The notes under the pieces are model-generated. The model was not told where the DNA came from. It worked only from the letters and a program-made list of their open reading frames with translations, and ran no database searches. Made by a program: the position numbers and the translations under genes. DNA of 64,000 bases, from positions 21,232 through 85,231 of the forward strand of contig CAKQRQ010000004.1 in assembly GCA_934271465.1 (NCBI GenBank). The letters are read 5' to 3'. Origin of the DNA: an uncultured Alphaproteobacteria bacterium. Lineage in GTDB: Bacteria; Pseudomonadota; Alphaproteobacteria; RF32; CAG-239. Below are positions 57,114 through 60,236 of the stretch, piece by piece. Position 1 is the stretch's first letter, and each line of letters opens with the position of its first letter.

Positions 57114-60100
57114 TTACCACGCGTCTTTATACCCAAGCGATGGATCGTTAACAGCCGCGTCCCAAGCCTCGGTCTTCTCAAAGCCGTAACGGGTTGTGCC
57201 GTTCAATTGGTCATACTGATAAACAGGCCCCGTGCTTCCCCAAACCCACTCGCGGTTAGGCAGGGGATCGCGGTCAAAGTAGCAATATGTATTAACAACG
57301 CCGGCCATATCACTTCCGTAAACCGGAAAGACATTCCAATAAACGTCATACGAAGTTTCGCCCAAATCCGAGAGCAAAGCCTCATAGTCCGTCTTATAAT
57401 ACAAAAAGCCCATTGCCGTGTGCCACCCTCTGAAGTTTTCGGGATTTCCTTTGGTCTCAACATTATTTTTCCAAACCAATGCCAAAGTCGTGTTCAAAAA
57501 GGTGTTTGTCTGGAATGTCAGCGGATACCCTTCTTTCAAACCGTGGGTATGCTCCTGCCCCAGCTCATCCACCCGTGTTGAATCGATTTGATAAACCGCA
57601 TGCAACGGGTTCGGCTGGATATAGAAATAATCATTAAAGGTATTAGTCGTGATAATTTCTTTATAGTTTGAGGGCGGATAAGTTTTTCCAGTGCCGTCTG
57701 CCCATTTTTTGGCCAAACCGCCGTTTGCCTCCTGGTTCACATAATAAACCTCCGCCATACGCCAGCGAATAGGGGCAATCGTCACAGCCTGCGCATAATG
57801 CGGCGGACATTGCGGCGCCGGAACAAACCCCAGCCATGGCGATGCAATGCAGTTTGCATCGGTGCACTCTGTGGAATCCTTCAAGTTATCGTTTCCGAGC
57901 GATCCGACAAACCACGATTGAGTCATTTTCGATTCATCATATGTATTATCAACAACATAAATTTCTTTGGTAATAAAATCCGGCAAAATATCACTCAAAC
58001 GGGCGCCGCCGCGGCTGGCCAGCTTAATATCATTCATAACGGACGTATAAGCCGGATTGACCTGATAATAATCATAGCGTTCTTTTGTCTGAAGCCCCTC
58101 GCCGGCGGCCGTTGCCCCATGGAAAGCATCGTGCTCCGGATATTTAACATCACTGACAATACGTCTGGCGCGGATAAATCCGCCCGTATCCGTTGACCCT
58201 TCCGGCGAACGAACTTCCAAAATACCGTTTCGGCTGATAACAACATTTCGCCCGTCTTTGGCGGTAATCAATTTGTCGCTAATCCCCGGATAAGCATCAG
58301 GATCATCCATATTCAGCGTATTGCTTGCCGTAATGTCCGAACCGATAGCCATTCCGAGGCTGTCCACCATCAAAGCGGTCTTACTATCCGCATTAAACTT
58401 AAATTTGTTGTTTTGCAAATAAATTGACGACACCTGCCCGTCCGCTTTATTCTCAAAACCGGCTTTTTCCGAATCGGCAATAACTTTTGTGGCTTCATTG
58501 CCGTCTTCGCCCACGCCGATAAAAGCGCTCTCATCTTTCATAACAATACGCGCTTTATTATTTCCGAGCAGCAATTGGTCGTTGGCCATCTCTAACTTGC
58601 CCAGAGAATTGCGCAGCACCAGCTCGCCCGTTTTGACCAACAATCCCTCGTGATTACCGTCTGTCTGATAATTTGATCCGACAAACACACCGTTTTCATC
58701 AACATTAATGGCATTGCCGACCGTGCCGACCTCGCCGCCGACTGCAAAGTTTCTGTTTCCGATATGAACCGTGTCATTGGTTGCCAAAAAGTTATTGTCC
58801 GCACCGGCTGTTAACTGTTGTTTGGCATGCAAATAATCCGCACTTAAAGTTCCGGTAATATACAAATTACCGTCAAGTCGTGTATCCCCCGTAATCAAAT
58901 TAGAATAAGGTTCATCATGTAGACTATAATTTTGTCTTGCAGAGGTTTCAAAGCCATTCAAACCAGACTTCATCGAAGCTTGTTCCGCTCCAGTAATCTG
59001 AACATCGCTACCGGACATCTTAACAAAATTAGTTGAAGAAATGTCAAGTCTATTTCCCAGACCTTCAGACTTAATCGTTATACCTCCTGAAGCCGATGAA
59101 ATATTCACACTGGCCTGCCCCGTAACAGAAACGGCTCCTTCCGAACTGCTCAAAGCCATCGCGTCTTTAGAAGTCAAATTCATTCCTCCCTCGGTGCTGG
59201 CCAAATTCATAGCGCCTTGAGATGTCAAATCCATCGTGCCGCCGGTGCTCTCCAAAGACATCGCGTCGCCGCTGGTCAGCCCCATTGTCCCGTCCGATTG
59301 AATAGTGGCCGCTCCATTTGAATGAAGGTCAATCTCTCCGCCGGACTGCCGCAAAACGCCTGTAATATCCGCGCCGCCGCCCGTTACCGTCAGCATATCC
59401 TCAATTTGAGCCGCCCCCGTCACAAGCAAACTGCTGATATCAGACCCAGGCTTACCAATCATCACGGATTTTTCTCCGCCGATCTCATCGCCCGCACCGA
59501 CCAAAGCCGCCACATCTCTAACATCATTGCCGTCCATATACAAAATCGTCCGCATGGTGTTTTTGTCCTGATCAGACGGCACTCTGTATAACACCTCATC
59601 CGAAGCCACATCCCCTTTGGACGAGTTAATAGCCTCGGCCGAAATCACAACCAAGCTCCCGTCCAGCACATCTTCATCAAAATCATAATCCGCCAAAGTC
59701 GCTTCCCAAGTGCCCTGAACACCTTCAATTTTTGAATTGTCTCCGGATTCTCGATAAACACCGCCGTTAGCTCCGATCATCGAGGCAATTTTGGCCGAAC
59801 GCATAATCGTCATGGAATTTTTAAGCGGCGCCATCACAGCCGATGTAAACACACTGTGCGTTGTGCCCTTCAAATCCGTAACTTCTCTTTTGTTGACGGA
59901 AATATCATAAGACTCAAACAGCTTTGAATCTGCCAGATTAAATCCGGGCGGCAAATAGTCTCTTAACGCGTTCAGCTCGTCTTCCGTATCAATCTTAAAC
60001 GTTCCGGCCGGATGATCATCACCCATTTGCTTATAATTATCCTTAATATAATCATCAACCGCGCTCGAAATCATCCGCATTTGTGTCGCAACGTTAATAT

Positions 60101-60236
60101 CCTGCAATTCCGTTGTCCGCTCGGCCGCTTTTTTATACAAAATAGGCGTAACCATGGTAATCAGCCCGAGAAGAGCCAATGCCTCAATCATCATACTGCC
60201 TTTTTGAGCACTTTCTTTGATGTCAAATTTTCTCAT
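57114..60236 (-). CDS. Giant type IV pilin-like protein (PilV/shufflon-N-like N-terminus, octapeptide-repeat middle, large C-terminal domain)
   Basis: 1040 aa; GGAGG lies 6 nt upstream. The prepilin-like leader MRKFDIKESAQKG|SMMIEALALLGLITMV has Glu at +5. SAKIASMIGANGGVY and LYRVPSDQDKNTMRT..MDGNDV resemble the PilV constant region as I recall it. Confidence 0.65.
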   Translation of the reverse strand: MRKFDIKESAQKGSMMIEALALLGLITMVTPILYKKAAERTTELQDINVATQMRMISSAVDDYIKDNYKQMGDDHPAGTFKIDTEDELNALRDYLPPGFNLADSKLFESYDISVNKREVTDLKGTTHSVFTSAVMAPLKNSMTIMRSAKIASMIGANGGVYRESGDNSKIEGVQGTWEATLADYDFDEDVLDGSLVVISAEAINSSKGDVASDEVLYRVPSDQDKNTMRTILYMDGNDVRDVAALVGAGDEIGGEKSVMIGKPGSDISSLLVTGAAQIEDMLTVTGGGADITGVLRQSGGEIDLHSNGAATIQSDGTMGLTSGDAMSLESTGGTMDLTSQGAMNLASTEGGMNLTSKDAMALSSSEGAVSVTGQASVNISSASGGITIKSEGLGNRLDISSTNFVKMSGSDVQITGAEQASMKSGLNGFETSARQNYSLHDEPYSNLITGDTRLDGNLYITGTLSADYLHAKQQLTAGADNNFLATNDTVHIGNRNFAVGGEVGTVGNAINVDENGVFVGSNYQTDGNHEGLLVKTGELVLRNSLGKLEMANDQLLLGNNKARIVMKDESAFIGVGEDGNEATKVIADSEKAGFENKADGQVSSIYLQNNKFKFNADSKTALMVDSLGMAIGSDITASNTLNMDDPDAYPGISDKLITAKDGRNVVISRNGILEVRSPEGSTDTGGFIRARRIVSDVKYPEHDAFHGATAAGEGLQTKERYDYYQVNPAYTSVMNDIKLASRGGARLSDILPDFITKEIYVVDNTYDESKMTQSWFVGSLGNDNLKDSTECTDANCIASPWLGFVPAPQCPPHYAQAVTIAPIRWRMAEVYYVNQEANGGLAKKWADGTGKTYPPSNYKEIITTNTFNDYFYIQPNPLHAVYQIDSTRVDELGQEHTHGLKEGYPLTFQTNTFLNTTLALVWKNNVETKGNPENFRGWHTAMGFLYYKTDYEALLSDLGETSYDVYWNVFPVYGSDMAGVVNTYCYFDRDPLPNREWVWGSTGPVYQYDQLNGTTRYGFEKTEAWDAAVNDPSLGYKDAW

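What the first reader, a model, noticed from the sequence alone, without database searches (positions are those of the whole stretch)
57114..60236. 1040-aa type IV pilin-like (PilV/shufflon-N-like) protein in a flagellar neighbourhood, with no pilus machinery in view
The N-terminus has a short basic leader ending in Gly, then SMMIE (Glu at +5) and a hydrophobic helix: the class III (prepilin) signal. The next 240 aa or so resemble, as I recall it, the constant region of IncI-plasmid PilV tip adhesins (AKIASMIGANGGVY; LYRVPSDQDKNTMRT.LYMDGNDV). PilV has a short variable tail. This protein instead continues for about 780 aa. The gene forms a two-gene operon with a 223-aa anchored protein. It sits between infA and fliL-fliM, and no pilB/pilC/pilQ/prepilin-peptidase genes occur in the 64 kb. 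A pilin-like giant adhesin of this architecture beside flagellar genes is unexpected.
Basis: partly seen in the sequence, partly recalled or inferred. Interest (0 to 1): 0.7.

Follow-up and report, generated by a model that had tools for sequence, protein, structure and literature searches.

The report
Giant PilV-like modular pilin, orphan locus
A 1040-residue protein of an uncultured gut alphaproteobacterium really does start like a type IV pilus tip subunit (PilV family), then continues into a long fibrous stalk and a new conserved end domain. It is always paired with a small membrane protein and never sits near pilus-building genes, so it is an uncharacterised variant of a known kind rather than a new kind of system.

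Summary
ORF 57114-60236(-) encodes 1040 aa and is translationally coupled to a 223-aa ORF (60250-60921). The N-terminus is a class III (prepilin) signal: a variable basic leader, then invariant Gly(-1) and Glu(+5), then a ~53-aa helix that averages 83% identity across the family. Residues ~48-255 are homologous to the PilV constant region: Pfam Shufflon_N scores 30.4 bits (cut-off 27.5) when the domain is scanned alone, and hhalign against a plasmid PilV gives 98.6%, E=7e-16. A fast-evolving Gly/Ser-rich β-stalk follows, then a conserved 380-aa Cys/Trp-rich C-terminal domain with no known relatives. This architecture and the leaderless partner (MYxW...) are fixed across more than 400 protein clusters, all examined ones from uncultured gut Alphaproteobacteria. 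No pilus ATPase, platform, secretin, peptidase or other prepilin-type ORF lies within ±10 kb in 87 loci or in the 64-kb window. There is no shufflon. Adjacency to fliL-fliM is common (~60 of 75 informative loci) but positional: the pair has its own promoter and terminator. Best reading (about 0.45): a modular tip or initiator minor pilin of a type IV filament whose machinery is encoded elsewhere. Whether that machinery exists in these genomes could not be tested.

The parts
60959..60993 (-). Conserved promoter-like element of the two-gene operon: ATTTAACACATTTGAAAT (60993-60976), an 11-nt spacer with TGTGT, then TATACT (60964-60959)
   Evidence: The same ATTTAAYANATTWGAAAC-N~12-TAtAAT arrangement lies about 40-70 nt upstream of the partner start in most of 77 species. 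It is the only zero-mismatch match in the 64-kb window. It stays with the pair in loci where the module is inverted or lies beside infA. Function is inferred, not shown.
60250..60921 (-). Partner gene: 223-aa leaderless bitopic protein (MYIWLVLATFLAMIAAYFLPIRQD...), with a kinked N-terminal helix, a beta-sheet domain and 4 conserved Cys
   Evidence: ORF. Present directly upstream of the big gene in 79 of 80 species loci, median gap 11 nt. Invariant M1 Y2 W4 ... P20 R22 D24 C100 C115. Distant 305-330-aa versions are homologous (hhalign 96-99%) and also start MY[IL]W. AF2 pLDDT 83.7, pTM 0.75. No PDB fold match. No Pfam/NCBIfam family.
60198..60236 (-). Big gene, aa 1-13: hydrophilic basic leader ending in Gln-Lys-Gly (putative prepilin-peptidase site after Gly13)
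   Evidence: The leader varies in length (7-11 aligned residues) and sequence (28% mean identity), while conservation begins sharply at Q(K/R)G. Cleavage is inferred.
60039..60197 (-). Big gene, aa 14-66: alpha1 helix, SMMIE(+5)ALALLGLITMVTPILYKKAAERTTELQDIN...
   Evidence: 83% mean pairwise identity over aa 11-66, with invariant G13 S14 M16 E18. AF2 predicts a continuous helix 13-66. Distant members keep G(-1) and E(+5) while the +1 residue varies S/G/T.
59472..60038 (-). Big gene, aa 67-255: PilV-type (Shufflon_N-like) pilin head domain
   Evidence: Pfam PF04917, 30.4 bits against a cut-off of 27.5, aa 48-255. tblastn hits annotated pilV genes at 28-29% identity over 92% of the query. hhalign 98.6%, E=7.3e-16. 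AF2 pLDDT 80-90 for helix plus antiparallel sheet.
58257..59471 (-). Big gene, aa 256-660: hypervariable Gly/Ser/Thr/Asn-rich fibrous beta stalk
   Evidence: 26% mean identity, length 339-451 aa and about 250 aa longer in distant clades. Sub-threshold DUF2345/VgrG beta-helix match at aa 297-393 (28.1 bits, below the 30.7 cut-off). AF2 confident beta repeats at 468-632. Foldseek hits to phage tail proteins and fibres at E~1e-4.
57114..58256 (-). Big gene, aa 661-1040 plus stop: conserved C-terminal domain of unknown fold (NPAYTSVMxDIKLxxRGGARLSDILPDFI; CPPxY; FQTNTWLNT; GWHxxMGFxY; ends NDPxLxYxxxW)
   Evidence: 51% mean identity, 4 Cys and 11 Trp. No Pfam hit when scanned alone. No significant PDB fold hit. 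In an exhaustive HMM search it occurs only at the C-terminus of 900-1300-aa proteins of this architecture.

Best explanation
The gene encodes a very large modular type IV pilin-like protein. I propose the following steps. (1) The protein inserts into the inner membrane by its class III signal. (2) A prepilin peptidase removes the 13-residue leader after Gly13. (3) The invariant alpha1 helix (Glu5) and the PilV-type head let it dock as the initiating, tip-located subunit of a type IV filament or short pseudopilus built by machinery encoded elsewhere in the genome. (4) The variable beta-stalk, probably trimeric like a VgrG or tail-fibre beta-helix and like the CofB/TcpB tip trimers, projects the conserved C-terminal domain away from the cell as the working (binding) end. 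(5) The co-translated leaderless partner, whose N-terminus resembles an already processed pilin with a hydrophobic residue at position 5, is an obligatory co-factor, acting as a co-tip subunit, membrane chaperone or docking partner. Shown here: the motif, the homology to PilV, the domain layout, the fixed pairing and the distribution. Inferred: cleavage, incorporation into a filament, trimerisation, the binding function and the partner's role.
For: Class III signal with invariant Gly(-1) and Glu(+5), a variable leader and an 83%-identical alpha1. A charged Glu conserved inside a membrane helix is the pilin hallmark; it neutralises the N-terminal amine of a neighbouring subunit (PMC5207764; definition of the signal in PMC8179133). 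Homology of aa ~48-255 to the PilV constant region: Pfam above cut-off; 8 of 10 further members hit only that family; tblastn to annotated pilV genes; hhalign 98.6%; plasmid PilV finds 21 members by phmmer, down to 3.5e-13. AF2 gives a 54-residue alpha1 plus a beta-sheet head at pLDDT 80-90. The top PDB fold hit, though weak, is the T4b minor pilin TcpB. The layout of pilin head, beta-rich linker and C-terminal module parallels CofB/TcpB, which cap pili as trimeric initiators (PMC6048534; PMC5207764), and the widespread 'modular pilins' (PMC8179133). Cys residues occur only in the C-terminal domain and in the partner, as expected for extracytoplasmic domains. Stalk length and sequence vary freely, which fits an exposed spacer better than a fixed-distance periplasmic strut.
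Against: Probes for the secretin, PilO2, PilP, two ATPases, the GspF-like platform protein, the major pilin and PilM found nothing within ±10 kb in any of 87 loci or in the window (that probe set did not include a prepilin peptidase). A class III motif scan found no other prepilin-type ORF there, and Pfam scans of the window found no pilus-machinery family, A24 peptidase included. Characterised T4b minor pilins are encoded inside the pilus operon and share their mature N-terminus with the major pilin, as PilV and the major pilin do. The canonical N_methyl signature is not detected. The partner has no recognisable pilin fold. The C-terminal domain is conserved, unlike the variable receptor-binding tails of PilV.
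Confidence: 0.45

Rival explanations
1. Pilin-derived but filament-independent envelope protein. The class III-like N-terminus now serves only as a conserved inner-membrane anchor and interaction helix, pairing with the partner's transmembrane helix (for example Glu18 with the partner's free N-terminal amine). The stalk and C-terminal domain work in the periplasm or at the outer membrane, for example tethering the envelope or binding peptidoglycan or an outer-membrane component.
For: No machinery, peptidase or other prepilin-type ORF near the pair in 87 loci, and no short pilin sharing the alpha1-N in the metagenome sample. The strictly co-conserved partner has an equally invariant leaderless transmembrane helix. 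The C-terminal domain is strongly conserved, with an invariant terminal Trp, as expected for binding a conserved self component.
Against: Stalk length varies by hundreds of residues between clades, which is awkward for a structure spanning a fixed periplasmic distance. The sharp switch from a variable leader to an invariant Q-K/R-G is typical of a cleaved leader. T4a minor pilin operons are also commonly unlinked from their machinery (general knowledge), so absence from the neighbourhood is weak evidence.
Confidence: 0.3
2. Flagellum-associated co-option. The pilin-like pair is an accessory of the polar flagellar motor or its periplasmic scaffold, analogous to the type IV pilus PilM/N/O homologues that form a cage around the Helicobacter pylori motor.
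For: fliL-fliM-DUF6468-(FlbB/MgtE_N-like)-(~840-aa weak-TPR protein) lies beside the pair in about 60 of 75 informative species loci, including the most distant clade. The neighbouring genes look like lineage-specific periplasmic motor accessories: a weak FlbB collar match at 43.9 bits and weak TPR. There is a precedent for T4P parts in a flagellar motor (PMC10823254).
Against: The pair has its own conserved promoter boxes, which differ from those upstream of fliL. Where the genes are co-directional, a strong intrinsic terminator separates them, so the arrangement is explained by in-place inversion of the module. uvrB is conserved in the same block, so this is ordinary synteny. About 13 of 75 loci have no fli neighbour. 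In L089 the fli genes look eroded while the pair is intact. The pair's promoter box is not found at other flagellar genes in the window. Flagellar genes are scattered throughout the region. Variable stalk length argues against a fixed scaffold.
Confidence: 0.13
3. Remnant of a mobile T4b conjugative-pilus locus (PilV of an integrated element) that lost its machinery and is decaying or has been neutrally retained.
For: The closest named relatives are plasmid or ICE PilV adhesins.
Against: The gene is intact and its architecture is fixed across 417 clusters and 126 matching stretches in a one-genome-per-species collection, with invariant motifs. It sits in a stable housekeeping context with no integrase, shufflon repeats or recombinase. 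GC content is unremarkable (0.44-0.48 against a window range of 0.39-0.49). The frameshifted copies seen are low-coverage assembly fragments.
Confidence: 0.02

Closest known systems
PilV, minor pilin and tip adhesin of IncI/IncI2/PAPI-1 type IVb conjugative thin pili (Pfam PF04917 Shufflon_N)
   Same: Homologous head domain: aa ~48-255 against PilV 47-225, hhalign 98.6%, 29% identity, including the IGANGG and LYR...N.M.T.L...GNDI motifs. N-terminal leader ending in Gly followed by a hydrophobic helix.
   Different: PilV is about 430-475 aa, and its mature N-terminus is G|WGM... without Glu5 and shared with the major pilin PilS. PilV is encoded inside the pil operon with the secretin, ATPases and platform, and its C-terminus is switched by a shufflon and Rci recombinase (PMC5430464, PMC9045228). 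Here the protein is 1040 aa with Glu5, a fibrous stalk and a conserved unrelated C-terminal domain. There is no shufflon, the context is chromosomal housekeeping, and only profile positions 10-205 of 324 match.
CofB (ETEC CFA/III) and TcpB (Vibrio cholerae TCP), type IVb minor pilins that initiate assembly as tip trimers
   Same: Domain logic: a class III signal with Glu5, a pilin alpha/beta head, a beta-rich linker and a C-terminal binding module. Tip location is forced by bulk (PMC6048534, PMC5207764). TcpB is the top PDB fold hit.
   Different: The fold match is not significant (E=0.037, TM<0.2). CofB and TcpB are 420-520 aa, operon-encoded next to the major pilin, and bind a co-encoded secreted partner (CofJ, TcpF). 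Here the stalk is about 400 aa, the C-terminal domain is unrelated, and the co-encoded partner is a membrane-anchored 223-aa protein.
Modular pilins (Streptococcus sanguinis PilB/PilC; InterPro survey of more than 1,200 proteins and 264 architectures)
   Same: A functional module grafted onto an N-terminal pilin module, probably tip-exposed (PMC8179133).
   Different: That survey was keyed on the IPR012902 N-methyl motif, which this family does not match. The largest case it cites is 860 residues, whereas this family runs from 950 to 1300 aa. Neither added module matches any known domain signature.
VgrG C-terminal beta-helix (DUF2345) and phage tail-fibre beta-structures
   Same: Gly/Ser-rich ~10-residue repeats at aa ~297-393 score 28.1 bits against DUF2345 and align weakly to VgrG 6sjl. 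Foldseek finds phage tail proteins at E~1e-4.
   Different: All matches are below the family threshold, with low TM-scores. There is no gp27/gp5 or T6SS context. The resemblance is to a generic, probably trimeric, fibrous fold only.
Helicobacter pylori flagellar cage built from PilM/PilN/PilO homologues
   Same: A precedent for type IV pilus proteins recruited to a flagellar motor (PMC10823254). Here a pilin-like pair lies beside fliL-fliM.
   Different: A different T4P component is involved (alignment complex, not a pilin). The only evidence here is positional synteny, with no co-transcription.

Membership tests
Type IV pilin superfamily (class III signal peptide proteins) | Short hydrophilic leader ending in Gly/Ala, followed by ~21 mostly hydrophobic residues with Glu at +5 | tested here: met
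   MRKFDIKESAQKG|SMMIE(+5)ALALLGLITMVTPILY. Gly13 and Glu18 are invariant in 52 of 52 members and in distant members. A motif scan recovers 83 family ORFs and essentially nothing else.
Type IV pilin superfamily (class III signal peptide proteins) | An alpha1 helix of ~50 residues packed on an antiparallel beta-sheet head | tested here: met
   AF2 model: helix 13-66, strands 111-120, 126-136, 158-164, 167-172, pLDDT 80-90. This is a model, not an experimental structure, and no significant Foldseek pilin hit was found.
Type IV pilin superfamily (class III signal peptide proteins) | Match to the N-terminal cleavage/methylation signature (PF07963 / TIGR02532 / IPR012902) | tested here: not met
   No hit for the 68-aa N-terminus in Pfam at E<=10, nor for the full protein in NCBIfam at E<=1. 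The +1 residue is Ser/Gly/Thr, not Phe/Met.
Type IV pilin superfamily (class III signal peptide proteins) | Leader removed by an A24 prepilin peptidase | not testable with these tools
   This needs the whole genome or biochemistry. Pfam scans found no A24 peptidase family in the 64-kb window. The ±10-kb flanks of the 87 loci were not specifically probed for a peptidase.
Type IV pilin superfamily (class III signal peptide proteins) | Assembled by a type IV filament machine (ATPase, platform, and secretin in diderms) | tested here: inconclusive
   Absent from the window and from ±10 kb in 87 loci. Genome-wide presence could not be examined.
PilV / Shufflon_N (PF04917) | Significant similarity to the N-terminal constant region | tested here: met
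   30.4 bits against a cut-off of 27.5 when aa 1-264 are scanned alone; the full-length scan missed it. Other members score 41.6, 31.8 and 28.4 bits above the cut-off, and five score below it. hhalign 98.6%. Only profile positions 10-205 of 324 are covered.
PilV / Shufflon_N (PF04917) | C-terminal segments exchanged by a shufflon (clustered inverted repeats plus an Rci-type recombinase) | tested here: not met
   No suitable inverted repeats in 55000-62000. No recombinase among the neighbours. The C-terminus is conserved, not variable.
PilV / Shufflon_N (PF04917) | Encoded in a type IVb pil operon on a conjugative plasmid or ICE | tested here: not met
   Compare the plasmid locus L007 with the chromosomal housekeeping context here. 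Phmmer probes for eight plasmid T4bP machinery proteins found no relatives in the window or the loci.
Type IVb initiator minor pilins (TcpB/CofB type) | Mature N-terminus shared with a co-encoded major pilin | tested here: not met
   No other class III ORF in the window or 87 loci. The metagenome scan for the alpha1-N motif returned only family members, frameshifted fragments of them, or chance hits.
Type IVb initiator minor pilins (TcpB/CofB type) | Structural similarity of the pilin head plus beta-rich C-terminal domains; homotrimer | tested here: inconclusive
   TcpB is the top PDB hit, but at E=0.037 and TM 0.08-0.18. Oligomeric state is not testable with single-chain AF2.
VgrG spike beta-helix (DUF2345, PF10106) | Score above the Pfam gathering threshold | tested here: not met
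   28.1 bits against 30.7. VgrG 6sjl at E=0.15.
Flagellar gene set | Homology to a known flagellar protein, or co-transcription or shared regulation with flagellar genes | tested here: not met
   No flagellar family hit. The pair has a separate promoter and terminator. Its promoter box is absent from other flagellar genes in the window. No sigma54, sigma28 or CtrA consensus.

The most novel reading that the evidence does not exclude
The pair is a minimal, self-contained pilin-derived device that works without a classical pilus. The leaderless partner mimics an already processed pilin, and its free N-terminal amine pairs in the membrane with the invariant Glu5 of the giant PilV-like protein. 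The complex is then recruited to the flagellated pole or motor periphery of these gut Alphaproteobacteria. This would be a second, independent case of type IV pilus parts being co-opted by a flagellar system, this time a pilin rather than the PilMNO alignment complex.
Probability: 0.12. Interest if true: 0.85.

Novelty: new variant of a known kind. Interest (0 to 1): 0.5.

Why it matters
The carriers are uncultured gut Alphaproteobacteria that turn up in human, ruminant, rodent, rabbit and poultry gut metagenomes. Nothing is known about how they attach to or interact with the host. This family is one of their most conserved large envelope proteins, and public records label it only 'hypothetical protein'. 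Recognising it as a PilV-type modular pilin gives a concrete, testable handle: prepilin processing, tip display, and a new C-terminal binding domain. It extends the known size range of pilin-like proteins to 950-1300 aa. It shows that signature-based surveys of modular pilins miss whole families. It also raises the question of how a pilin-like protein functions when it is consistently separated from any pilus locus and paired with a leaderless membrane partner.

Tried and rejected
(1) The full-length Pfam and NCBIfam scans gave no pilin hit. This was a false negative, since scanning the N-terminal 264 aa alone recovered Shufflon_N.
(2) My first three loci suggested that infA, not fliL, was the conserved neighbour. 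The 80-species survey reversed this.
(3) The co-directional big-gene-then-fliL arrangement in L039, L057 and L065 looked like independent evidence for functional linkage. I rejected it because a strong terminator and a separate fliL upstream region intervene, so an in-place inversion explains it.
(4) Regex scans for sigma54, sigma28 and CtrA-box motifs upstream of the operon found nothing consistent. The conserved box resembles TTAA-N7-GAAAC, but its regulator is unknown. It is not shared with other flagellar genes in the window.
(5) Partner as a pilin: the secondary-structure layout is pilin-like, but Foldseek finds no match (best E=0.4), so I make no such claim.
(6) Foldseek of the whole model against the PDB gave no hit at E<1e-3. 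The viral library gave only generic tail-fibre resemblance.
(7) Shufflon or phase variation: no inverted repeats, no meaningful tandem repeats and no recombinase.
(8) Search for a cognate major pilin through the shared alpha1-N motif: the short ORFs found (L092, L119, L114) are frameshifted fragments of the long gene.
(9) Literature search for genome descriptions of the RF32-type lineage found nothing. The RF32 name is my own recollection of GTDB placement, not a tool result.
(10) The ~840-aa gene at the end of the fliL operon and the 865-aa window ORF are not pilus-related: only weak TPR and weak Lcl_C signals.

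
Full report
OBSERVATION. The ORF is real and at the stated coordinates: 57114..60236 on the minus strand, ATG start, 1040 aa. Directly upstream on the same strand is a 223-aa ORF (60250..60921, GTG start). Its TGA is followed by AGAGGAGGGTGTT and then the ATG of the big gene, a 13-nt gap carrying a strong ribosome-binding site, so the two are almost certainly co-translated. infA converges on the 3' end, and fliL and fliM diverge from the 5' end. 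GC content is unremarkable.

IS IT PILIN-LIKE? My first full-length scans against Pfam and NCBIfam found no pilin family. The only match was a sub-threshold one to the VgrG-type beta-helix repeat DUF2345 at aa 297-393 (28.1 bits against a 30.7 cut-off), plus a weak VgrG hit among PDB sequences. That was a false negative. When the first 264 residues are scanned alone they match PF04917 (Shufflon_N, the PilV constant region) at 30.4 bits, above the 27.5 gathering cut-off. A tblastn of the same segment against 72,556 plasmids returns 220 records, and the best are annotated pilV genes at 28-29% identity over 92% of the query. The plasmid PilV itself finds 21 family members by phmmer, down to 3.5e-13. 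Eight of ten additional members, including distant ones, hit Shufflon_N as their only Pfam family, three of them above the cut-off. The homology is therefore established. It covers only about the first 60% of the Pfam profile.

The N-terminus fits the definition of a class III signal peptide (PMC8179133). It has a hydrophilic basic leader whose length and sequence vary (28% mean identity). After that comes an abrupt switch to an invariant Q-(K/R)-G, and then S/G/T-(M/L/I)-(M/L)-(V/I)-E and a hydrophobic tract. Gly(-1) and Glu(+5) are invariant in all 52 aligned members and in distant 1200-1300-aa members where the +1 residue changes. Residues 11-66 average 83% pairwise identity, against 47% for the head, 26% for the central region and 51% for the C-terminal domain. 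Such conservation of a transmembrane helix containing a buried Glu is what pilins show, because Glu5 neutralises the N-terminal amine of a neighbouring subunit (PMC5207764). AlphaFold2 with the family alignment predicts one continuous helix (13-66) packed on an antiparallel sheet at pLDDT 80-90. The canonical N-methyl signature is not matched. Bona fide PilV has a different mature N-terminus (G|WGM..., no Glu5) that it shares with its major pilin.

THE REST OF THE PROTEIN. Residues ~256-660 are Gly/Ser/Thr/Asn-rich and free of Cys and Trp. They are hypervariable in sequence and in length: 339-451 aa in the core family and about 250 aa longer in distant clades. AF2 models residues 468-632 as regular beta repeats with high confidence, but it fails on 207-455, which includes the DUF2345-like repeats. 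Foldseek against predicted viral structures finds phage tail proteins and fibres at E~1e-4 with low TM-scores. I infer a fibrous stalk. It is possibly an obligate trimer, which would explain the poor monomer model and would match the trimeric tip complexes of CofB and TcpB (PMC6048534). Trimerisation was not tested. Residues 661-1040 form a conserved domain rich in Trp and Tyr, with four Cys and several near-invariant motifs, always ending ...NDPxLxYxxxW. This domain has no Pfam match on its own and no significant PDB fold match. An exhaustive HMM search of 1.84 billion representative proteins found 417 clusters (349 below 1e-10). In every full-length hit listed, the domain sits at the C-terminus of a 900-1300-aa protein. 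The architecture is therefore fixed and the domain is not shared with other protein types.

THE PARTNER. The 223-aa protein starts directly with the hydrophobic segment MYxW..., with no leader. The ORF cannot be extended upstream, and all homologues start the same way. It has an invariant Pro20-x-Arg22 kink and four conserved Cys. AF2 is confident (pLDDT 83.7, pTM 0.75): helix 2-18, kink, helix 23-54, then a beta-sheet domain. Foldseek finds nothing (best E=0.4), so I do not call it a pilin. I note only that its N-terminus resembles a mature pilin with a hydrophobic residue at position 5. It lies immediately upstream of the big gene in 79 of 80 species loci, with a median gap of 11 nt. The 305-330-aa versions in the most distant clades are homologous at 96-99% hhalign probability.

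DISTRIBUTION AND CONTEXT. In a one-genome-per-species collection, 126 stretches encode a relative. The 80 loci retrieved all come from uncultured gut Alphaproteobacteria. Their record titles include Proteobacteria bacterium CAG:495, 'uncultured Azospirillum sp.' UMGS bins, Candidatus Scatocola faecigallinarum, and rumen, deer, rabbit, mouse and human bins. Every source that gives the protein a name calls it 'hypothetical protein'. Unsupervised clustering of all neighbouring ORFs shows a block of uvrB, an ~850-aa unknown, an MgtE_N-like protein, DUF6468, fliM and fliL, divergent from the pair, in about 60 of 80 loci. The 3' side is variable. Of 75 loci with enough flank, 54 have fliL divergent within 1 kb, about eight more have it close by in another arrangement, and 13 have none. 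Even distant members keep this neighbourhood. I first read the co-directional arrangement in L039, L057 and L065 as independent evidence of selection for linkage. Closer inspection shows a textbook intrinsic terminator right after the big gene and a separate fliL upstream region. The pair also carries its own conserved promoter-like boxes (ATTTAAYANATTWGAAAC-N~12-TAtAAT, plus TGTTRCA-N5-TGTKAA in many clades) wherever it sits, including beside infA. In the window this box is unique. No sigma54, sigma28 or CtrA consensus is present. Flagellar genes are scattered through this chromosome region: flgB, flgC and fliE near 6 kb; a flagellin at 14.9 kb; flhB, fliR and fliQ just left of the window. 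The flagellar adjacency is therefore conserved positional synteny of an autonomous two-gene module. It is not co-transcription, and I rate a functional link as possible but unsupported. The precedent of PilM/N/O homologues in the H. pylori motor cage (PMC10823254) keeps that reading alive as the most novel option.

MACHINERY. Pfam scans of 40 ORFs across 515-45611, the precomputed annotations for the rest of the window and the 10-kb flanks show no ATPase, platform, secretin or peptidase. Phmmer probes made from a Klebsiella plasmid T4b pil operon (secretin PilN, PilO2, PilP, two ATPases, the GspF-like protein, the major pilin and PilM) find nothing in the window or in 87 loci. A class III motif scan of 7,757 ORFs finds only the family itself. 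T4b minor pilins share their mature N-terminus with the major pilin, so I scanned metagenome contigs for the degenerate alpha1-N motif. The 80 loci returned held family members, chance hits in unrelated membrane proteins, and a few short ORFs. tblastn showed these short ORFs to be frameshifted fragments of the long gene in low-coverage assemblies. Whether these genomes encode a prepilin peptidase and a filament machine elsewhere could not be tested, and it is the decisive open point.

NOT A SHUFFLON, NOT A REMNANT. There are no clustered inverted repeats, no meaningful tandem repeats and no recombinase, and the C-terminus is conserved rather than switched. Intact, architecture-fixed conservation across hundreds of clusters in a housekeeping context rules out a decaying mobile-element remnant.

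CONCLUSION. The protein is a PilV-family, class III-signal, modular pilin-like protein with a new and fixed architecture: head, fibrous stalk and a novel C-terminal domain. It is obligatorily paired with a novel leaderless membrane protein and encoded away from any pilus locus. The most likely mechanism (about 0.45) is that of a bulky tip or initiator minor pilin, as in CofB, TcpB and PilV, presented by a type IV filament whose genes lie elsewhere. A filament-independent membrane-anchored role (about 0.3) and a flagellum-associated co-option (about 0.13) remain open. In terms of novelty it is a new variant of a known kind. Modular pilins are known to be widespread (PMC8179133), but this family is larger than those catalogued there, is invisible to the signature used in that survey, and carries two uncharacterised modules and a new partner.

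Noticed in passing
window 14871-17141 (+): A 756-aa flagellin. The Flagellin_N and Flagellin_C ends are separated by ~570 aa that include a Pectate_lyase_5-like 'adhesive' beta-helix segment (E=8e-6). This would be a giant flagellin with an inserted surface domain.
   Followed up: no
window 61109-64000 (+) and L005:3939-6452: The fliL operon continues fliM, DUF6468, a 214-aa MgtE_N-like protein and an ~840-aa protein, then uvrB. The 214-aa protein weakly matches the spirochaete flagellar collar protein FlbB (43.9 bits, below the 110 cut-off). The ~840-aa protein has only weak TPR signals and starts just before the window's right end. Together they look like a lineage-specific periplasmic motor scaffold.
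   Followed up: partly
window 60959-61045 (-) and upstream of the partner gene in L008-L087: The promoter-like boxes upstream of the operon are strongly conserved between species (ATTTAAYANATTWGAAAC-N~12-TAtAAT; in many clades also TGTTRCA-N5-TGTKAA about 40 nt further upstream). The first resembles TTAA-N7-GAAAC, that is, a CtrA-box-like half match. The regulator is unknown.
   Followed up: partly
window 45791-48388 (-): An 865-aa ORF with no NCBIfam hit and only a sub-threshold Lcl_C (Legionella collagen-like protein C-terminal) match. This is another large unannotated protein.
   Followed up: partly
L089:3799-5569: In one distant lineage the genes in the fliL/fliM position look eroded while the pilin-like pair is intact. 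There are 59-, 251- and 111-aa ORFs without FliL, FliM or DUF6468 hits, and the ~850-aa gene is missing. This may be flagellar decay with retention of the pair.
   Followed up: partly
window 9302-11420 (-): Two adjacent, slightly overlapping Ppx/GppA-family phosphatase paralogues of 332 and 379 aa.
   Followed up: no
window 11511-12656 (-): An N6/N4 DNA methyltransferase with a C-terminal RAMA domain, which is the CcrM-type architecture typical of Alphaproteobacteria.
   Followed up: no
window 38107-42219 (-): A 1370-aa AsmA-family protein in which only the N-terminal ~160 aa match the profile.
   Followed up: no
window 29355-30473 (+), 32751-33284 (+), 36135-37088 (+), 48604-49032 (-): ORFs of 372, 177, 317 and 142 aa with no Pfam hit and, where tested, no NCBIfam hit. 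The 372-aa ORF overlaps the 5' end of ftsH on the opposite strand and may not be a gene.
   Followed up: no
L092, L114, L119, L130 (metagenome contigs): Several low-coverage metagenome assemblies carry the long gene split by frameshifts, so gene callers would report short 'pilin-sized' ORFs with the family N-terminus. Anyone searching for a major pilin could be misled by these.
   Followed up: yes
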